Shown here piece by piece: positions 14,528 to 56,221 of a stretch of DNA of 64,000 bases. The DNA comes from Gemmatimonadales bacterium (GTDB taxonomy: Bacteria; Gemmatimonadota; Gemmatimonadetes; Gemmatimonadales; GWC2-71-9): positions 7,572 through 71,571 of the forward strand of contig DASWIX010000079.1 of assembly GCA_036397455.1 (NCBI GenBank), written 5' to 3'. The translations under genes were made by a program, and so were the position numbers. Every line of letters begins with the position of its first letter. Position 1 is the stretch's first letter. The notes beneath the pieces were generated by a model that saw only the letters and a program-made list of their open reading frames with translations, had not been told where the DNA came from and did not search any database.

Positions 14528-14624
14528 TGGCGGGAGCGTGTGGGAATCGAACCCACCGGAGCCGCCTCAGGCGCCTCCCGACGGTTTTGAAGACCGCACA
14601 GGCCACCAGGCCCGATCCGCCCCC
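14528..14624 (-). tRNA. selC: tRNA-Sec(UCA)
   Basis: 97 nt; anticodon loop CTTCAAA; 6-bp D-stem with a 4-nt loop; long variable arm; 8/5 acceptor/T layout; ends G-CCA. Confidence 0.95.
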
Positions 14625-45743: not shown

Positions 45744-45788
45744 TGGGTCTGGGAGGAGTTGAACCTCCGACCTCACGCTTATCAGGCG
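45744..45788 (-). pseudogene. 3' half of tRNA-Ile(GAU), att-core-like fragment
   Basis: CGCCTGATAAGCGTGAGGTCGGAGGTTCAACTCCTCCCAGACCCA: anticodon and T arms present, D-arm and 5' acceptor strand absent. Confidence 0.85.
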
Positions 45789-45906
45789 CGCCACGCATGC
45801 CCGGCGTCGGCCCGACCACCACACGCCAACCGTTTGCCGACCGAGGCCTCTCCGATGATCGCCGCCACCGCAATCGCACCGCGCGGAACCGAAGTGCGGG
45901 GTCCAG

Positions 45907-46293
45907 TCAATACGCCAACACCCGAACGCCCGGCACGCGGTTGTAATCCCGCACGTTCCGTGTCACCACCGCTTGGTCATGGGCCCGCGCCGTCGCCGCG
46001 ATCCAGAGATCGTTCGCGCCGATCAACGTCCCGTTGGCACGCAAGTGACGATAGGCGCGCGCATACGCCCAGGCGACCTCGACGCCGCACGGCAGGACCT
46101 CGAATCCAGCCATCACGGCTTCCCACCGCGCCCGCTCATGATCGCCGGCACCCGCAGCCAACTCCCCCGCGATCGTCCACGTAATGCAGACGCGTTCCCT
46201 GTCATGCGCCTGGAGAAACCGGTGCGCCGGCCCCTCTTCCCTCCGCTGCAGCTCGCGTTCGAGGTCGATGAGAAACGTGGTCTCCAAAATCAC
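45907..46293 (-). CDS. vapC: VapC PIN-domain toxin
   Basis: ILETTFLID, GELAAG, IGANDLWIAA, VTRNVRDY; GTGA overlap with the antitoxin. Confidence 0.9.
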   Translation of the reverse strand: MILETTFLIDLERELQRREEGPAHRFLQAHDRERVCITWTIAGELAAGAGDHERARWEAVMAGFEVLPCGVEVAWAYARAYRHLRANGTLIGANDLWIAATARAHDQAVVTRNVRDYNRVPGVRVLAY

Positions 46294-46535
46294 GGTGACC
46301 ACTTGTCACGCGGCGCCCGATCGCTCGCCTTGAGTGCCTCGACGGCGGCCAGCCCCTCCGCCGAATAGCCGGGACCTCGCTCCCGCACGGAAGCCAGCAA
46401 CTCCCCCGCCGTGAGCGGTACGGTATCCCACCGGGCCCTGAGCACCACGTCGCTGAACGACTCGTCGGGGCGCAGGCGGGCCTGCCGGAGCCGATCGTAC
46501 GCCTCGATTCTCAGGGATATTGTCTTGGTGGCCAT
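46290..46535 (-). CDS. vapB: VapB antitoxin (DUF217-type)
   Basis: MATKTISLRIEAYDRL…ESFSDVVLR; TTGACA at 46570-46565 and an imperfect palindrome over the start region. Confidence 0.85.
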   Translation of the reverse strand: MATKTISLRIEAYDRLRQARLRPDESFSDVVLRARWDTVPLTAGELLASVRERGPGYSAEGLAAVEALKASDRAPRDKWSP

Positions 46536-46605
46536 GCATGTACCGTGCATGGTCCATGTACGTTTGTCAAGCGATCAGAGTGCTCCGCGAGCGTCCGTTG
46601 GCAGA

Positions 46606-46850
46606 TCAGGTCGGCAACTCGAGCCGAGCCAGCATGCCGAGCGACCCTGCGGTTTCCCAGGATCGATTGCGGCGAGAAGCTGATAACGGCACCACGATCT
46701 CGGCCGCCTCGAGCGCGTCGATGGCTGCGCAGATCTGCGGCTTCGAGCGTCCGGTGGCCGCCGCGGCAACGGGGCGGTGATCACGGGGTAGGCCGGCAGC
46801 ATCTCGATGCGCACCCACGCCGCGGCGTCGGAACGCGGCGGACTGGGCCG
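46606..46850 (-). pseudogene. Frameshifted C-terminal remnant of a Fic-family protein (HTH tail)
   Basis: PRSDAAAWVRIEMLPAYPVITAP continues in another frame as VAAAATGRSKPQICAAIDALEAAEIVVPLSASRRNRSWE; shift near 46772; no Fic motif left. Confidence 0.6.
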
Positions 46851-47047
46851 GGCCCGAAGCGTCGCCGACCCCGCGGCGCTTTAACCAGCAGGTAGATCCT
46901 GGACGGCTCATTCACCAGCCGCACTTTGGGAGGGCCGATTGAAATTCTCCTATTCCGATGTGTCGCGTTTGGGCTATGGCGGGCACCGGATTCGCGCACC
47001 ACGTTCATGAGAAGGATCTGCAGTCCCTCTTCGGACGGGAGAATACC

Positions 47048-49885
47048 ATGCGGATTTCGCCTCGATTCCTGACGGCCGTTATGGCGGCGGGGGCGCTGGC
47101 ACCCGTGGTCGCGTGTCAACCGATTGCCATTGGCCCCACCGCCGTCGAGCCGAACTTCGATGCCGAGGACCCTCCGCCAACGCTCAAGAAGGTGACCGTC
47201 TGCAAGGTCGGCACGGACGCCGAGTTCCGCGTCACCATCGGGAGCGGTACACCGGATACCCTTTCCCTGGCGGAGGGCAGTTGCGCGGTCGTGGCGGAAT
47301 GGGTGGACGTGACTTCGCCGTTGGACGTGACCGTGACGGAGCTCGAGCTCGCGGGAACGCAGCTCGATTCGATCGCGAAGGATTCGGTCTACACCGTTCT
47401 GACCAACCCCCCGACGTACGAGACCGCCACCTGGATCACCGGCACGAATACGGTCGTCGGGCACCAGGGCGGGGGGAAGGGCGCCGTACTGACCTTCTTC
47501 AACTCGCTGGTGGGCCAGGCGGACACCAGCCGGCCGGCCGTGCCGAACGGGTTCGACTCGCCGGACAGCGCCGTGGCACTCCTCGTGAATCCCCCGGGGA
47601 GCGACCCGGAGCTCCTCGTGTTCCGCAATTTCGTGCACATCGAATTCGATGACACGACCACCGGCACCACGGTTAGGGACCTGTTCGCGCGGTACGGGGC
47701 TACCGTAGCCGGGGGGTATCCGCTCACGGGCGCGTACATCATCCAGGTCCCCGACCCCGGTCCGGCGTACGCCGACTTGAAGGCACTCCTCGCGCAACTG
47801 GCGGCCGAGCCAGGAGTTGCTTGGGTGTACCGTCGCGTCAAGTTTGAACCTGAGGGAAGTCTGGGCCGCTTTCCAGAGGACGGCTCGCTCTCGCGGCGAG
47901 AGGACTGGCTGGGCGCGCCGACGGACGCGACCAGGGGCCTGCGCGCGATCCGCGCCCCGCTGGCCTGGGGCTGCGAGACCGGGACCTACGGATCTTCGCC
48001 CGTCGGCATCGGGGTGATCGATGACGTGTTCGGGACGGGGATAGCGGACCTGAGTTCTGTGGTCGAGCACTCGGTTGACCCGACGGTCGCGGCGTTCCGG
48101 GCTCTCACCGACCCTGCTCGGCTGAGTCACGGCACGGGGGTATCCGGGGTGATTGGTGCCAGGGGCGACAACGGGTCCGGCGTCGCGGGGCTAGTCTGGG
48201 CCAGCACCCTACACCAGTTCAGACTCGCCCGAGAAGTTGGCCTGGTGACGCGCATGGTCGAAGACCCGGGCGCCTACATCGCTCACGTGGTCCTGCCCGC
48301 CGCCATTCAAGCGCCGATCAGGATTCTCCATTCGTCGATCGAGGCCCCGATAGACGCTCGCGTCGCGAATATTATCGAACTCAACCTCCGGCAGTTTGTG
48401 GACGCGTCCCCGGGTGGCCGTCTCTTCGTGCAGGCCGGGCAGAACACCCGCGGGACGATTCTGCCCGATACCGCCGACCAGATTCAAGGCGGGTTCCTGA
48501 TGGAGCAGGCGGTGGCCAACCTGGGCGGGACGCCTGACGCGAACCGGGTGATCCTCGTGGGCGCCGCCAACCGCGATGGCACGACGCTGTGGGGTGCGGG
48601 GACGCCAGGTGGCGATGGGGCAACGCTGTGGTCCGGCGTCACCGCAATCCTGGCGCCGTCCGAGAGCATCCTCGTCCTCGCCAGGCCGCAGGATTTTGCC
48701 GCGGGCACGTTCGCCACGTCCGGCACGTCGTTCGGCGCGCCGATGGTGAGCGGGGTGGCGGCGCAGCTCTGGACGTTCGATCCGACCCTCACCGCGGACG
48801 AGGTGCGGGACTACATCTTGCGCGGGGCGCAGGAGCCCAAATCGTTCGGGCCGACGGGGGCTCCGGTCCCGCCCACCCCGATTGCGGGATCCGGCGGGCT
48901 GTTCCTGCTAGACGCCTACGGCGCGTTGACGCTCGCCTCGCGCGAGCGGCCCAACACGACGCCGATTTGTGGCGTCAAGGTGTGGGCGCAAGGCGCCAAC
49001 GTGGCGGTCGCGCGGGACGTGGTGCAGTTGTGGTCGGTGCCCGGCGCGACAGGCCCGCTCTCCGTCTCCGTGGCGCAGGGCGGGCGGCTGATTGCCGCGA
49101 GTGACGGTGCTCAGGTGTTCACGCTCGACCATCAGGGCAATCCCGTGGAGACGTTGTCGCTCCGCCGCCGCGTCTACCTGGAACGCGATACGATGGATCT
49201 CGTGACCGGACCCGCGGGCGTTCTCGTGTCCATCACCGGGCCGAATGGCGTGCCGGCGTTCGATCCGGTGGAGCGGGTCCTGCCGTCCCTACCGCCGGAG
49301 CTACACTCGGCGTGGAACGTCGGGGCCGTGGAGGCCTCACCGGTCGGTGACTGGCTCGCCGTCCGGCTGCACGAATCGAACGCACTGTTGTGTGAATCCG
49401 CTTACTGGTATCTGGTTCCCGCTTCGGGCCAACCCGCGGTACTCGTGCAGGCCATGCTCGGGAACCCACCCGCCGCCGGCTTCCCGCTCGAGGCCTGTCA
49501 CGCGAACAAGATGAGCGCAGGCTGGTCGCACGACGGGCAACGCACGGCGATCACCATACTGCGGGGGCTCTCCGGCGAGAAGGAGACGGGCCTGCGGATG
49601 ATCTCGATCGTGAACGGGCAACCGGTCGGGGTGACGAGCGAAATCGTGTTGGGGGGACTCTGGCTCTTTCAGCCGCGGTTTACGGCGAACGACTCGCTGC
49701 TCATGGTGAACGAGCAAACCGAGGAAGACGCATGTAGCCTCGCGTATCGGGTGGCAGGCGCACCGGGGTCACGGGTGCGCACGGAGTTCGCGCTCCCAAG
49801 CGACTGCGACGCCCCCATTACTCCACCGACCATCTTCAACACGCGCGTGGCCCCGCCGGCGAGCCCGGCTCAGCGCCGGAGGTGA
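47048..49885 (+). CDS. S8 subtilisin-like serine peptidase, probable lipoprotein with a C-terminal propeller-like region
   Basis: VVAC lipobox; triad GVIDD / SHGTGV / SGTSFGAPMVSG; WSHDG and PRFTAND repeats. Confidence 0.88.
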   Translation: MRISPRFLTAVMAAGALAPVVACQPIAIGPTAVEPNFDAEDPPPTLKKVTVCKVGTDAEFRVTIGSGTPDTLSLAEGSCAVVAEWVDVTSPLDVTVTELELAGTQLDSIAKDSVYTVLTNPPTYETATWITGTNTVVGHQGGGKGAVLTFFNSLVGQADTSRPAVPNGFDSPDSAVALLVNPPGSDPELLVFRNFVHIEFDDTTTGTTVRDLFARYGATVAGGYPLTGAYIIQVPDPGPAYADLKALLAQLAAEPGVAWVYRRVKFEPEGSLGRFPEDGSLSRREDWLGAPTDATRGLRAIRAPLAWGCETGTYGSSPVGIGVIDDVFGTGIADLSSVVEHSVDPTVAAFRALTDPARLSHGTGVSGVIGARGDNGSGVAGLVWASTLHQFRLAREVGLVTRMVEDPGAYIAHVVLPAAIQAPIRILHSSIEAPIDARVANIIELNLRQFVDASPGGRLFVQAGQNTRGTILPDTADQIQGGFLMEQAVANLGGTPDANRVILVGAANRDGTTLWGAGTPGGDGATLWSGVTAILAPSESILVLARPQDFAAGTFATSGTSFGAPMVSGVAAQLWTFDPTLTADEVRDYILRGAQEPKSFGPTGAPVPPTPIAGSGGLFLLDAYGALTLASRERPNTTPICGVKVWAQGANVAVARDVVQLWSVPGATGPLSVSVAQGGRLIAASDGAQVFTLDHQGNPVETLSLRRRVYLERDTMDLVTGPAGVLVSITGPNGVPAFDPVERVLPSLPPELHSAWNVGAVEASPVGDWLAVRLHESNALLCESAYWYLVPASGQPAVLVQAMLGNPPAAGFPLEACHANKMSAGWSHDGQRTAITILRGLSGEKETGLRMISIVNGQPVGVTSEIVLGGLWLFQPRFTANDSLLMVNEQTEEDACSLAYRVAGAPGSRVRTEFALPSDCDAPITPPTIFNTRVAPPASPAQRRR

Positions 49886-50076
49886 CGTCCAGGCGGCAAC
49901 CGCCGACGGACGCGACCGCAAAACAGTAAAGGCGTCCGGAGCAGGAGCCCTCATGACGGCAGCTGTCGCCTTGGCGGCGTCCAGCTCCATCGGCTGCTGG
50001 AAGGATACCACGCGGCGCCCTGACCTTGGCGCCGTCCCGGGCGGGACGGCACGCGGGGCGCCCAGCCCCATCACCC

Positions 50077-50107
50077 TTGCATTATGAGCGTGTGACGCTC
50101 AATTTGC
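50077..50107 (+). promoter_or_regulatory. Probable leaderless promoter with an operator-like inverted repeat
   Basis: TTGCAT (50077-50082)-N17-CAATTT; GCATTATGAGCGT-GTG-ACGCTCAATTTGC (50079-50107); ATG at 50111. Confidence 0.6.
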
Positions 50108-51588: not shown

Positions 51589-53558
<1,970 letters not shown>

Positions 53559-53610
53559 AACCTGAGCCTCCGTTACTGGTAACATGTTGATGGATATGAC
53601 TTTGACGGCA

Positions 53611-53675
53611 TTAGCACTCTTTGGTACCGAGTGCTAATCAGGCAGGGAAGATACGTCGGCCCCGAATGAAGTCAA
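53611..53675 (-). promoter_or_regulatory. CIRCE element (HrcA operator) and groESL promoter
   Basis: TTAGCACTC-N9-GAGTGCTAA at 53611-53637; TTGACT (53675-53670)-N16-TATCTT (53653-53648). Confidence 0.95.
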
Positions 53676-53710
53676 GTGGCATAGTGGGGCGGGAGGGCGG
53701 CTGGCCGATC

Positions 53711-54253
53711 TCAGCGATCCCAATAGGCTTCCAACTCCACGCCGAGCCCGTCGGCCATCCGGTTGACATAGGCGTAGTACGCGGTGACCTGGCAGGTGTC
53801 GAGGATCTCGCCGTCGCCGAGGCCGACGGCGCGCAGCGCGTCGATATCGCCCGGTGTCATGCGGCTGGGGGTCTTGGTGAGCTTGACCGCGTAGTCAAGG
53901 ATCGCGCGCTCGCGTGGAGTGAGCGTCGCGGTCGAGTAGTCCCGCTCCACCGCGGCGGCCTTCTCATCATCGTGCAACAACCGACGGAGACCCGCCCCGT
54001 GATGTCGGATTCAGTACACGCAGTCGTTGGCCCGTGAGACGGCAACCGCGATCATCTCCCGCTCGGTGCGGGACAGGCCGGACGGCCCGCGCATGAGGTG
54101 CTCGTACAGACGGTAATGGTGCTCGAGCGATTCCGGATTGAGCGAGTGGATCTTGAGGATATGGTCGACCCCGAAATGACCGCGATGCGCGGCATACAAC
54201 TCCGCCAGTTTCCCACTCGCGTCACGCTCATCAACCCACTCGATCCACGCCAT
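53711..54253 (-). CDS. AhpD/carboxymuconolactone-decarboxylase-family peroxidase-related selenoprotein (CxxU), 180 aa by UGA readthrough
   Basis: The two listed ORFs share a frame across TGA 54013-54011: EREMIAVAVSRANDCVY-U-IRHHGAGLRRL; SECIS-like hairpin follows; selC is in the window. Confidence 0.88.
53981..54008 (-). promoter_or_regulatory. Putative bacterial SECIS element
   Basis: ACGGGG-CGGGU-CUCCGU stem-loop (54000-53984) starting at the 11th nt after UGA; lower CCG/CGG stem. Confidence 0.65.
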
Positions 54254-54274
54254 CCCATACCCCCTATGACCGTC

Positions 54275-55315
54275 CTAGTCCACGATCCTCCGTGCGCTCA
54301 CCCAGCGTTGCTGCCACCAGCGGCTATCGGGGTCGGTCGCGGTAAGACTCGACAACTTCACCCCGCCCGACGCGCTGTGAATGAACTGTCCTCCGCCAAT
54401 ATACAAACCGATATGCGTGATGCGACTCGTGCCCTCGATGGAGAACCCGATCAGGTCGCCCGGGGCCAGCGCAGCCACGCGCTTGTCGAGGGCCTTGCCC
54501 ATGCGCATCTGGTCGCGACTGATGCGCGGCATGATGATGCCGTGTTGACCGTAGGCGTAGTGAATCAGCCCCGAACAATCGAATCCGTTTTCGTCGCTGC
54601 CGCCCCACTGATACGGGAGGCCCATGACCTTGAGTGCGGTCTCGACGACGCTGGTGGTGAGCCGCGCGCCGGTCTCGGACGCGCCGGCATCGCGCGCCAG
54701 GTCGTGAATGTCATTGGTCGACGGAAGACGACTCGGCGGGGCTGATGGACGCGCAGGATTCGTCGCGACGGCCGGCGGGTGCGCCGCGCGGCTGGGCGAC
54801 CCGCCGAGACCGATCGCCACGCGGCCGGTCAACTGAATCCCGCGCCGGTCATCGGGGCCAAGCCGCCAGAAACCGTACATCCCGGAGTCCTCGACGCGGT
54901 ACCGGCCCTCGAGCCCGAGCGAGAAGCCCGAGAACGGCCTGACCGCGTAGCCGCCACCGGCCGACCACGCCCCATCGATGCCTCCTCCGACGTGCCTGAT
55001 GCCAACAGCCGCAGAGCCAATGAGATACGGTCCCGACCCGTCGCGGAACATGCTCAGGGACAGCTCTGCCCCCGACAGAGTGCGGTCGTCGATCGAACGG
55101 GTGTTATCGAGGTGGGTGAACCCGATCCCATAGCCAAATGGACCGAAGAGCCTGCGGGTGTAGCCAGCGGAAAACACGACCGAGGTGGAATCGCCGGTCC
55201 ACCAAAAGCCGTACCCCGCCTCGAACGTCGGCCCTTGTGCCTGAGCGGCCGCCGAGACCGAACCACCGAGGACCCCAAGCAGGGTCGCGAGCCGCGCTGC
55301 CGGAATGACCTTCAT
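54275..55315 (-). CDS. NlpC/P60 (C40) peptidase with an N-terminal outer-membrane beta-barrel-like domain
   Basis: PYQWGG, FDCSGLI, PGDLI, THIGLY, FIHS; amphipathic beta-strands after the signal peptide. Confidence 0.88.
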   Translation of the reverse strand: MKVIPAARLATLLGVLGGSVSAAAQAQGPTFEAGYGFWWTGDSTSVVFSAGYTRRLFGPFGYGIGFTHLDNTRSIDDRTLSGAELSLSMFRDGSGPYLIGSAAVGIRHVGGGIDGAWSAGGGYAVRPFSGFSLGLEGRYRVEDSGMYGFWRLGPDDRRGIQLTGRVAIGLGGSPSRAAHPPAVATNPARPSAPPSRLPSTNDIHDLARDAGASETGARLTTSVVETALKVMGLPYQWGGSDENGFDCSGLIHYAYGQHGIIMPRISRDQMRMGKALDKRVAALAPGDLIGFSIEGTSRITHIGLYIGGGQFIHSASGGVKLSSLTATDPDSRWWQQRWVSARRIVD

Positions 55316-55441
55316 GTGACGTAAGTCCCAACGTAGCAATACCATAGCTACCGGTCAACATTCTGCCATCGCGCAGCGGCCGAGTGACCAGACGTGAGGG
55401 ACCCTCGTCTGATTACCTTTTGAGGCCAAATGGGAGGTACC

Positions 55442-55864
55442 ATGCCCGTCGTCACCGTGACGCGACGCGTCCATTTCAACGCGGCTCACCGGCTGCACCG
55501 TCCTGACCTGTCCGACGCCGAGAACCGCGCGCTGTTCGGCCCGTGCAACAACCCCAACTACCACGGGCACAATTACGAACTGGACATCTCGGTGGCTGGC
55601 GAGGTCGACCCGGTAACCGGCTACGTCGCCGACATGGGCGAAATCAAGCGCGTCGCCGAGCGGACGGTGCTGGCGGCGCTCGACCACAAGAACCTGAATC
55701 TCGACGTGACCGCGTTCGCCGAGGTCAACCCGACCGCGGAGAACATCGTCGTGGCGATCTGGAGCATGCTGGAGCACGCATTGCCGGGGAGACTCGTGAA
55801 GCTGGTGTTGTGGGAGACGCCGCGGAATTACGTCGAGTACACGGGGAGCGGCGCCCGGCGCTGA
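55442..55864 (+). CDS. 6-pyruvoyl-/6-carboxy-tetrahydropterin synthase family protein (PTPS/QueD)
   Basis: FNAAHRL, CNNPNYHGHNY, LDHKNLN, PTAEN, LWETPRN; GGGAGG RBS. Confidence 0.93.
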   Translation: MPVVTVTRRVHFNAAHRLHRPDLSDAENRALFGPCNNPNYHGHNYELDISVAGEVDPVTGYVADMGEIKRVAERTVLAALDHKNLNLDVTAFAEVNPTAENIVVAIWSMLEHALPGRLVKLVLWETPRNYVEYTGSGARR

Positions 55865-56221
55865 AACCTATCGGCAGTCCCGCCCTGAAGGGCGGGCTCG
55901 GCCAAGAGGAGCGTGCTGAAGCACGCCGCCGACCCGTCCTTCAGGACGCCGTTCTCGACCGAGCCCGGGCTCTCAGCCCGGGACTGTCGCAGCGTGCTGA
56001 AGCACGCCGCCGACCCGTCCTTCAGGACGCCATTCTCGGCCGAGCCCGGGCTCTCAGGCCGGTTGTGGGAGACGCCGCGGAATTACGTCGAGTACACGGG
56101 GAGCGGCGCCCGCCGCTGAAACCTGTCGGCAGTCCCGCCCTGAAGGGCGGGCTCGGCCAAGAGTAGCGTGCTGAAGCACGCCGCCGACCCGTCCTTCAGG
56201 ACGCCGTTCTCGGCCGAGCCC
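55807..56221. repeat. 160-bp direct repeat of the PTPS 3' end plus a REP-like hairpin cluster
   Basis: 55807-55966 vs 56062-56221 (4 mismatches); a sub-unit of up to 67 bp at 55910, 55991 and 56165; hairpins CCCGCCCTGAAGGGCGGG, GCGTGCTGAAGCACGC, CGTCCTTCAGGACG. Confidence 0.92.

What the first reader, a model, noticed from the sequence alone, without database searches (positions are those of the whole stretch)
53711..54253. Hidden AhpD-like selenoprotein (CVYU) with a SECIS, split by the ORF caller
Seen: ORFs 54011-54253 and 53711-53980 are in one frame, separated by a single TGA plus 10 sense codons. Readthrough gives …NDCVY-U-IRHHG…, placing UGA exactly at the second Cys of the AhpD CxxC…H motif. 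A 6-bp stem with a G-rich loop starts at the 11th nt after UGA. tRNA-Sec is in the same window. Known: AhpD-like CxxU selenoproteins have been predicted computationally, and the E. coli fdhF SECIS has similar spacing. Inference: a 180-aa Sec redox enzyme that pipelines would annotate as two fragments or a pseudogene. It sits just upstream of groESL.
Basis: partly seen in the sequence, partly recalled or inferred. Interest (0 to 1): 0.72.

Follow-up and report, generated by a model that had tools for sequence, protein, structure and literature searches.

The report
Known AhpD-like selenoprotein gene, correctly spotted
The apparent stop codon in the middle of this small bacterial gene is very likely read as selenocysteine, giving one likely antioxidant enzyme; the call is right, but the gene is an ordinary member of a predicted selenoprotein family described in 2005.

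Summary
Confirmed. The two minus-strand ORFs are one 180-codon gene (54253-53711) with a single in-frame TGA at codon 81 (C-V-Y-TGA).

Read through, it scores 164 bits on TIGR01926 (cut-off 81.8), while each half fails. Its model matches Deinococcus DR1765 (TM 0.92). The TGA sits at the second Cys of the AhpD Glu-Cys-Tyr-Cys-His relay.

Of 118 related loci, 85 have TGA at this codon, 32 have Cys codons and none has TGG. The hairpin is unremarkable alone, but synonymous codons preserve it: all six pairs form in 34 of 69 TGA genes against 1.2 expected.

The genome has selA, a TGA-containing selD and tRNA-Sec. selB was not found, but its neighbours in a congener (argS, metK, recO, purM) are missing too, so an assembly gap is likely.

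The position before groESL is conserved in 7 of 7 closest orthologs, but groESL has its own CIRCE element.

The family (AhpD-like, TIGR01926, CxxU) was described in 2005 and is catalogued as predicted, not experimentally verified. This scan found it before in at least seven other genomes. Verdict: new member of a known kind, low interest.

The parts
53711..54253 (-). Whole gene, 180 codons plus terminal TGA: AhpD-like / peroxidase-related (TIGR01926, PF02627) predicted selenoprotein
54011..54013 (-). In-frame TGA at codon 81, predicted Sec; second position of CxxU, equivalent to M. tuberculosis AhpD Cys133 and PA0269 Cys51
   Evidence: relay residues from PMC3141380
54020..54022 (-). Cys78, first Cys of CxxU (likely resolving residue)
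   Evidence: Cys in 119 of 120 homologs
54056..54058 (-). Glu66, proton-relay glutamate
   Evidence: invariant in 60 of 60 aligned sequences; equals PA0269 Glu36 + 30
53999..54001 (-). His85, proton-relay histidine, encoded downstream of the TGA and upstream of the next start codon
   Evidence: 120 of 120 homologs; 71 of 71 TGA loci at 44% identity or more
53984..54000 (-). Predicted bacterial SECIS upper hairpin, +11 to +27 after UGA: 6-bp stem with one G-U pair, 5-nt loop CGGGU
53975..54007 (-). Hairpin extended with a lower stem (+4 to +36), -11.0 kcal/mol, minimum-energy fold of the first 36-45 nt after UGA
54260..54265 (-). AGGGGG Shine-Dalgarno-like site ending 6 nt before the ATG (inferred)
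   Evidence: sequence
54275..55345 (-). Upstream NlpC/P60-domain gene, 21 nt before the start; likely co-transcribed (inferred); syntenic in 7 of 7 closest orthologs
53611..53637 (.). Perfect CIRCE (HrcA operator) between the gene and groES; belongs to groESL
   Evidence: consensus in PMC1676014; hrcA in genome
53648..53675 (-). Sigma-70-like promoter match (TTGACT-16-TATCTT) for groESL, downstream of the selenoprotein gene; consensus match only (1 found, 0.5 expected)
51589..53558 (-). groES (53250-53558) and groEL (51589-53226), downstream neighbours; names recognised from the translations, not scanned
14528..14624 (-). tRNA-Sec (selC), anticodon TCA
   Evidence: ARAGORN; Rfam RF01852 76.9 bits against a cut-off of 47

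Best explanation
This is one gene whose in-frame TGA is very likely decoded as selenocysteine, giving a 180-residue AhpD-like redox enzyme with a Cys78-x-x-Sec81 site that likely reduces peroxides or partner-protein disulfides. Decoding (inferred): SelB carrying Sec-tRNA(Sec) binds the hairpin at +11 to +27 and delivers Sec at the UGA; SelA and SelD supply the Sec-tRNA. Chemistry (inferred from Cys relatives): Sec81 takes the place of the exposed second Cys. With Glu66, Tyr80 and His85 as the proton relay, the selenolate attacks a peroxide or a substrate disulfide, Cys78 resolves it as a selenenyl-sulfide, and a lipoamide- or thioredoxin-type system re-reduces it. Shown here: sequence, frame, family scores, predicted fold, conservation of TGA and of the hairpin codons, and presence of selA, selD and selC. 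Not shown: Sec insertion, expression, substrate, electron donor and selB in this genome. About 0.95 for Sec decoding and about 0.8 for AhpD-like thiol/selenol oxidoreductase chemistry.
For: Read-through scores 164.1 bits on TIGR01926 (cut-off 81.8); the halves score 63.3 and 73.8. The closest solved proteins have Cys at this site. The model has pLDDT 96.7 and TM 0.92 to DR1765 (6k40). The relay E66/C78/Y80/U81/H85 matches PA0269 E36/C48/Y50/C51/H55 with a constant offset of 30. In 61 genomes (own plus 60 relatives), 27 of the 29 matches with E below 1e-12 contain a TGA, and the other two do not span residue 81. At codon 81 in 118 of 119 loci: 85 TGA, 32 TGC/TGT, 1 GAC, 0 TGG; 84 of the 85 TGA genes have no other stop in the aligned part. 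Hairpin: 69 of 69 non-redundant TGA genes have a G-loop hairpin against 13 of 28 Cys genes. All six fixed pairs form in 34 of 69 TGA genes (1.2 expected from synonymous shuffles) against 1 of 28 Cys genes (0.5 expected). Gly at +13 is GGA/GGG in 47 of 47 (42% elsewhere in the same genes), and Arg at +25 is CGT in 34 of 38 (12% elsewhere). selA and selD pass their cut-offs, and selD itself has one TGA. Two AhpC/TSA-family genes in the genome also carry an in-frame TGA. A lipoamide dehydrogenase gene is present.
Against: selB was not found in this assembly by TIGR00475, PF09107 or tblastn with six relatives' SelB frames. The query hairpin alone is not exceptional: 53% of synonymous recodings give an equal or better hairpin somewhere at spacing 16-37, though only 2.6% give this exact stem. 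The bare 6-bp hairpin is -5.8 kcal/mol, short of the -7.5 model threshold unless the lower stem is counted, and longer windows prefer another fold. The loci are kin: Sec and Cys labels need only 3 changes on a quick tree, so the contrast rests on few independent events. One same-genus copy (L011) is frameshifted downstream of the TGA. The family is listed as predicted, not experimentally verified. In B. thailandensis AhpD the first Cys matters more than the second, so the roles of Cys78 and Sec81 are inferred.
Confidence: 0.85

Rival explanations
1. The protein is a real selenoprotein, but its job is not peroxide or disulfide reduction: it is a reductive dehalogenase or a halogen/electrophile-detoxifying enzyme.
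For: The debrominase Bmp8 has the same fold (Foldseek E 5e-6, TM 0.78, 17% identity). No substrate is known for the AhpD-like structures compared in PMC3141380, and PA0269 peroxidase activity is weak.
Against: Much closer relatives (35% identity, TM 0.92) are the DR1765 type, whose loss sensitises cells to H2O2 and whose CxxC cysteines matter for complementation (review PMC8945050). The full AhpD relay is kept. No halogen-metabolism gene was recognised among the immediate neighbours.
Confidence: 0.09
2. In this organism the gene is a dead or truncated relic: UGA acts as a stop because selB has really been lost.
For: No selB in G000. One congener copy is frameshifted.
Against: selB passes the cut-off in 51 of 61 genomes, including both congeners. 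About 39 kb around selB in both congeners has no ortholog-level hit in G000. Of 11 named genes there, 7 (recO, ahcY, metK, ribAB, ribD, purM, argS) have no hit at E 1e-3 and 4 hit only paralogs; an organism cannot lack arginyl-tRNA synthetase, so this is a gap in an 89.8%-complete assembly. selA, selD, selC and at least four TGA-containing genes are intact.
Confidence: 0.03
3. The two ORFs are translated separately as half-proteins that assemble or act alone.
For: A TTG start exists at 53980, and each half has a weak family match.
Against: The 10 codons between the TGA and that start encode H84, H85 and L89, each kept in 71 of 71 TGA loci. A split would lose the relay histidine and the second redox residue. 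The TGA lies at the start of a helix (residues 79-93) of the model.
Confidence: 0.01
4. UGA is reassigned genome-wide (Trp or Gly) or read as Cys, so the product is not a selenoprotein.
For: 43 of 120 database homologs show Trp at this column.
Against: TGA ends 6 of the 11 other window genes checked, none has an internal TGA, and Trp is TGG. 0 of 118 DNA loci have TGG at this codon, and the three Trp-type proteins that match a fetched locus at 90% or more all match TGA loci. The TCA-anticodon tRNA is a typical tRNA-Sec.
Confidence: 0.01

Closest known systems
AhpD-like selenoprotein family (COG2128 / TIGR01926, CxxU): Sargasso Sea selenoproteome 2005 (PMC1088965), 'AhpD-like 1' of GOS 2008 (PMC2398784), Table 1 of the 2026 review (PMC13188914), a family page in BSepDB (PMC13326102)
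   Same: Same domain model passed above cut-off, same CxxU position, one Sec, a hairpin right after the UGA, and widespread Cys homologs.
   Different: No difference in kind was found. The host is likely a Gemmatimonadota bacterium; that word has 0 occurrences in the main text of the review or the BSepDB paper, but I did not see their supplements or the database. The site between an NlpC/P60 gene and groESL is specific to one clade.
DR1765, AhpD-like protein of Deinococcus radiodurans (PDB 6k40), and the structural-genomics relatives 2oyo, 3c1l, 2pfx, 2prr
   Same: Fold (TM 0.82-0.92, 29-36% identity), length, and the CxYC..H site.
   Different: They have Cys, not Sec, at the second position and need no SECIS.
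M. tuberculosis AhpD and P. aeruginosa PA0269
   Same: Five-residue proton relay with identical spacing; Tyr at the His132 position, as in PA0269.
   Different: Distant overall (PA0269 26% identity; Mtb AhpD TM 0.57). It fails the true-AhpD model TIGR00777 (16.6 against 191.95 bits). No ahpC gene lies beside it.
NF041238 AhpD_rel_CFYUT and NF053654 YciW-related (seleno)proteins
   Same: Related CxxU selenoprotein families of the same superfamily.
   Different: Scores are far below cut-off (60 against 175, and 19.5 against 310), so it is not a member.
E. coli fdhF SECIS
   Same: G16-C17 and GGUCU at +19 to +23 after UGA are identical in position.
   Different: The predicted pairing register differs (loop at +17 to +21 here, +19 to +22 in the fdhF fold), and the predicted stem here has no single-base 5' bulge.

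Membership tests
AhpD-like selenoprotein (TIGR01926, CxxU) | Full-length match to TIGR01926 above the curated cut-off | tested here: met
   164.1 against 81.8 bits, profile positions 1-173 of 178
AhpD-like selenoprotein (TIGR01926, CxxU) | In-frame TGA aligned to the second Cys of CxxC in Cys homologs | tested here: met
AhpD-like selenoprotein (TIGR01926, CxxU) | TGA conserved in independent orthologs with an open frame on both sides | tested here: met
   85 of 118 loci have TGA; 84 of 85 have no other stop in the aligned part
Bacterial SECIS model (PMC13188914 Fig. 2A) | Loop 3-9 nt, stem 4-16 bp, G in the first two loop positions, 16-37 nt from UGA | tested here: met
   loop 5 nt (CGGGU), stem 6 bp, spacing 16
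Bacterial SECIS model (PMC13188914 Fig. 2A) | Free energy at or below -7.5 kcal/mol | tested here: inconclusive
   -5.8 for the bare hairpin; -7.6 to -11.4 with the lower stem; bSECISearch itself was not available
Bacterial SECIS model (PMC13188914 Fig. 2A) | Hairpin under selection beyond the protein sequence | tested here: met
   synonymous-shuffle test and codon counts in 69 TGA genes; the sequences are related, so the counts overstate independence
Sec-utilising genome | selA, selC and selD present | tested here: met
Sec-utilising genome | selB present | tested here: inconclusive
   not found in the 89.8%-complete assembly; its syntenic block, including argS and metK, is missing too; over cut-off in 51 of 61 genomes
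AhpD-like peroxidase-related fold | All-helical fold with the Glu-x11-Cys-x2-Cys-x3-His relay | tested here: met
   (Sec modelled as Cys)
AhpD-like selenoprotein (TIGR01926, CxxU) | Selenium actually incorporated, and redox activity | not testable with these tools
   needs 75Se labelling or MS, and assays
True AhpD (TIGR00777) | Score above the subfamily cut-off | tested here: not met
   16.6 against 191.95 bits
NF041238 AhpD_rel_CFYUT | Score above the equivalog cut-off | tested here: not met
   60 against 175 bits

The most novel reading that the evidence does not exclude
The Sec form is not a routine peroxide scavenger but a selenium-dependent reductive dehalogenase or damaged-protein repair enzyme, built on the fold it shares with the debrominase Bmp8. 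It is fixed just upstream of groESL in one clade so that read-through transcription ties it to the chaperonin, and it is expanded to several Sec paralogs per genome in this lineage.
Probability: 0.06. Interest if true: 0.6.

Novelty: new member of a known kind. Interest (0 to 1): 0.17.

Why it matters
Mainly an annotation fix: a plain ORF call cuts the gene into two fragments that each fall below the family cut-off, and protein databases appear to hold many relatives with a false Trp at the Sec site. The family is one of the most abundant predicted bacterial selenoprotein families (299 GOS sequences) but is still listed as not experimentally verified. Any member with a clear SECIS is therefore a usable test case, but this one is no better than the many others. 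It also shows that this likely Gemmatimonadota lineage uses Sec broadly.

Tried and rejected
1. Folding the region after UGA against dinucleotide shuffles gave no significant z-score in 4 of 4 windows; the hairpin cannot be argued from stability alone.
2. An alternative hairpin register (loop GUCU at +20 to +23, -5.6 kcal/mol) was considered.
3. Three searches for selB in the own genome found none. A first idea that its neighbour maps to contig C20 was wrong: that gene is a ClpC-like paralog, while the congener's neighbour is clpB.
4. Laying three runs on a congener's clpB-selB-recO stretch at 80% likeness was uninformative; only short pieces from many organisms were laid.
5. No RNA holder listed.
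6. A functional tie to groESL was considered and lowered: a CIRCE lies between the genes in 7 of 7 syntenic loci, and in 2 of them the spacer is about 400 or 1,380 nt. No minus-strand terminator-like site was found in 53200-55600, so read-through transcription is not excluded.
7. The careful tree did not finish; only the quick tree was used, without a root test.
8. A paper search for Bmp8 and deiodinase listed only unrelated papers among the 10 shown of 98; the mechanistic analogy is recalled, not read.
9. A search for Gemmatimonad + selenoprotein + selenocysteine listed 8 papers, none on this family in this phylum by title or abstract start.
10. No complex prediction was run, as no specific partner is claimed.

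Full report
Observation. The feature is on the minus strand. Translating 54253-53711 gives one frame with a single internal stop, TGA at 54013-54011, codon 81, in NDCVY*IRHHG. The ORF list splits it into 80-aa and 89-aa pieces, with 10 sense codons between the TGA and the TTG at 53980. With TGA read as Sec the product is 180 aa. A tRNA-Sec lies at 14528-14624 (ARAGORN; Rfam RF01852 76.9 bits against 47). Contigs identical to the window cover the TGA in run X1, possibly the source, and in run X3 of another study. The host is likely a Gemmatimonadota bacterium: a record so titled carries a 72%-identical, syntenic ortholog in the same clade.

Family and fold. The read-through protein passes TIGR01926 (164.1 against 81.8 bits); the halves score 63.3 and 73.8. 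It fails TIGR00777, NF041238 and NF053654. Pfam gives CMD across residues 42-122, spanning the TGA. The nine PDB sequence matches are AhpD-like or CMD proteins, and the three shown alignments have Cys opposite codon 81. An AlphaFold model from a 60-sequence alignment (Sec as Cys, one extra terminal residue) has mean pLDDT 96.7 and matches DR1765 (6k40) at TM 0.92. The relay residues named for PA0269 (Glu36, Cys48, Tyr50, Cys51, His55; PMC3141380, passages) map to E66, C78, Y80, U81 and H85. E66, Y80 and H85 are invariant in the 60 aligned sequences, and C78 nearly so.

Conservation of the TGA. Among 61 genomes (own plus 60 relatives), 35 have a match. Of the 29 matches with E below 1e-12, 27 contain a TGA and the other two do not span residue 81. 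Seven relatives carry two such TGA-bearing homologs (counted). I mapped codon 81 in 118 of 119 fetched loci (L025 does not span it). Relatives including the own copy: 25 TGA, 3 Cys, 1 Asp of 29. Genome scan: 3 TGA, 6 Cys of 9. Metagenomes: 57 TGA, 23 Cys of the best 80 of 583. None has TGG. H84, H85 and L89, which lie between the TGA and the next start, are kept in 71 of 71 TGA loci at 44% identity or more, which argues against a split gene. TGA is an ordinary stop elsewhere: it ends 6 of 11 other window genes checked, and none has an internal TGA.

SECIS. Alone, the hairpin is weak evidence: no significant z-score in four windows, and other folds win in all four. Within the first 36-45 nt after UGA it is the minimum-energy fold (-11.0 to -11.4 kcal/mol, stem-pair probability 0.62-0.73). 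It meets the geometric rules of the bacterial model (PMC13188914 section 5). The comparative test is stronger. I kept 69 of 85 TGA loci (44% identity or more, duplicates removed) and 28 of 32 Cys loci (40% or more). Holding the peptide fixed and shuffling synonymous codons, the best hairpin averaged -7.4 against -3.6 kcal/mol in TGA genes (64 of 69 better than their own shuffle mean) and -1.8 against -1.5 in Cys genes (12 of 28). All six pairs formed in 34 of 69 TGA genes against 1.2 expected. In the 47 genes with the same peptide class, Gly at +13 was always GGA or GGG, and Arg at +25 was CGT in 34 of 38; these are the choices that keep the stem. For the query under genome codon usage, the exact stem arises in 2.6% of recodings, but some equally good hairpin arises in 53%. 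The sequences are related, and Sec and Cys labels change only three times on a quick tree of 103 rows (loci under 40% identity left out), so these counts are not independent trials. E. coli fdhF has the same GGUCU at +19 to +23.

Sec machinery. selA (504.5 bits) and selD (357.1 bits, with one TGA in HGAG*ACK) are present. Two of 10 AhpC/TSA matches also carry an in-frame TGA. selB was not found by TIGR00475, PF09107 or tblastn. This is the main result against. However, selB passes the cut-off in 51 of 61 genomes, including both congeners. The 40 kb fetched around selB from each congener gave only paralog-level hits (50% identity or less) in this assembly, whereas syntenic orthologs near our gene are 55-94% identical. 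That block holds clpB, recO, ahcY, metK, ptsI, hprK, ribAB, ribD, purM and argS; seven of the 11 genes tested have no hit at all. Missing argS and metK mark a gap in an 89.8%-complete assembly. selB in this organism is therefore likely but not shown.

Neighbourhood. The order NlpC/P60 - this gene - groES - groEL holds in the window and in 6 of 6 closest orthologs fetched with long flanks. It was not seen in two more distant genome loci (about 4 kb flanks) or in 15 short loci (1.5 kb flanks at most). The gene starts 21 nt after the NlpC stop. Between it and groES lie a promoter-like site and a CIRCE element, perfect here and within 2 mismatches in all 7 loci (consensus from PMC1676014, passages); hrcA is in the genome. 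So groESL likely has its own heat-shock control, and the adjacency is probably inherited gene order.

Mechanism. By analogy (inference): in M. tuberculosis AhpD the second Cys is the exposed one that attacks AhpC's disulfide (PMC6626918, one passage), although the same passage reports that the first Cys matters more in B. thailandensis. AhpD is reduced by lipoamide-containing proteins, and loss of DR1765 sensitises cells to H2O2 (PMC8945050, passages; the primary DR1765 paper was not read). The relay is invariant in deinococcal AhpD-like proteins with one exception (PMC6300522, passages). I therefore commit to a Sec81 nucleophile resolved by Cys78 in a peroxide- or disulfide-reducing cycle. 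A lipoamide dehydrogenase gene exists in the genome, but the donor and substrate are untested.

Comparison with what is known. AhpD-like CxxU selenoproteins were reported in 2005 with 27 sequences and a predicted SECIS (PMC1088965, passages). GOS had 299 (PMC2398784, passages). The 2026 review lists 'AhpD-like protein, TIGR01926, CxxU' under 'predicted with high confidence' (PMC13188914: passages, section 5, and part 1 of 3 of section 7). BSepDB has a page for the family (PMC13326102, passages). I did not see the supplements of these papers or the database, which may already list this lineage or this gene. Earlier notes of this scan describe the same family in seven other genomes; I read them after forming this view and they are not evidence.

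Verdict. It is a new member of a known, still experimentally unverified selenoprotein family. Interest 0.17.

Noticed in passing
P0002-P0121 (database homologs): 43 of 120 homologs have Trp at the Sec column, yet 0 of 118 DNA loci have TGG there, and the three Trp-type proteins matching a locus at 90-99% all match TGA loci. These are likely TGA codons translated with a Trp-reading code by gene callers, so false CxxW motifs sit in public protein sets.
   Followed up: partly
window 53611-53637: Perfect CIRCE before groES, conserved within 2 mismatches in 7 of 7 syntenic loci; hrcA at G000:C7:21731-22732.
   Followed up: yes
G000:C11:86229-86600 (L147): AhpC/TSA-family gene with an in-frame TGA in DTPG*NRQL (TxxU type), followed closely by a pyridine nucleotide-disulfide reductase-like match. 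My hairpin rule found no stable SECIS-like hairpin after this TGA.
   Followed up: partly
G000:C33:24254-24652 (L149): Second AhpC/TSA-family gene with an in-frame TGA (RTRG*TIQM) and a 7-bp hairpin at spacing 21; candidate selenoprotein.
   Followed up: partly
G000:C42:141889-142821 (L004): selD itself has an in-frame TGA (HGAG*ACK) with two strong hairpins behind it.
   Followed up: partly
L011:1501-2000 (G001, same genus): The ortholog is frameshifted after about residue 118 while keeping the TGA; either an assembly error or a decaying copy.
   Followed up: partly
L012-L035 (relatives): Several more distant AhpD-like subfamilies in this order also have TGA at the same site (contexts CRY*LASH, CLF*IGSH, CRY*IDSH); seven relatives carry two such homologs. 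The lineage looks rich in Sec AhpD-like paralogs.
   Followed up: partly
L095, L102, L104, L106, L113, L135, L144: A subgroup with the peptide HHRRGLRR uses a shifted stem register with loop GGUCU at +19 to +23, closer to E. coli fdhF, suggesting that protein sequence and SECIS shifted together.
   Followed up: no
L057-L058 (G001:C30:1-40000): selB lies between recO and clpB in this congener, in a block with argS, metK, ahcY, purM and riboflavin genes; the block is absent from the G000 assembly.
   Followed up: yes
window 55865-56166: The end of the PTPS-family gene (LWETPRNYVEYTGSGARR) appears again a short way downstream within near-duplicated sequence; possibly a local duplication or an assembly artefact.
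   Followed up: no
window 45744-50100: A weak tRNA match at 45744-45802 that ARAGORN did not call, followed by a small gene pair resembling a PIN-type toxin-antitoxin module, a 975-aa subtilase-like ORF and an ATPase ORF (names recalled from sequence, not scanned). Looks like an inserted island beside groEL.
   Followed up: no
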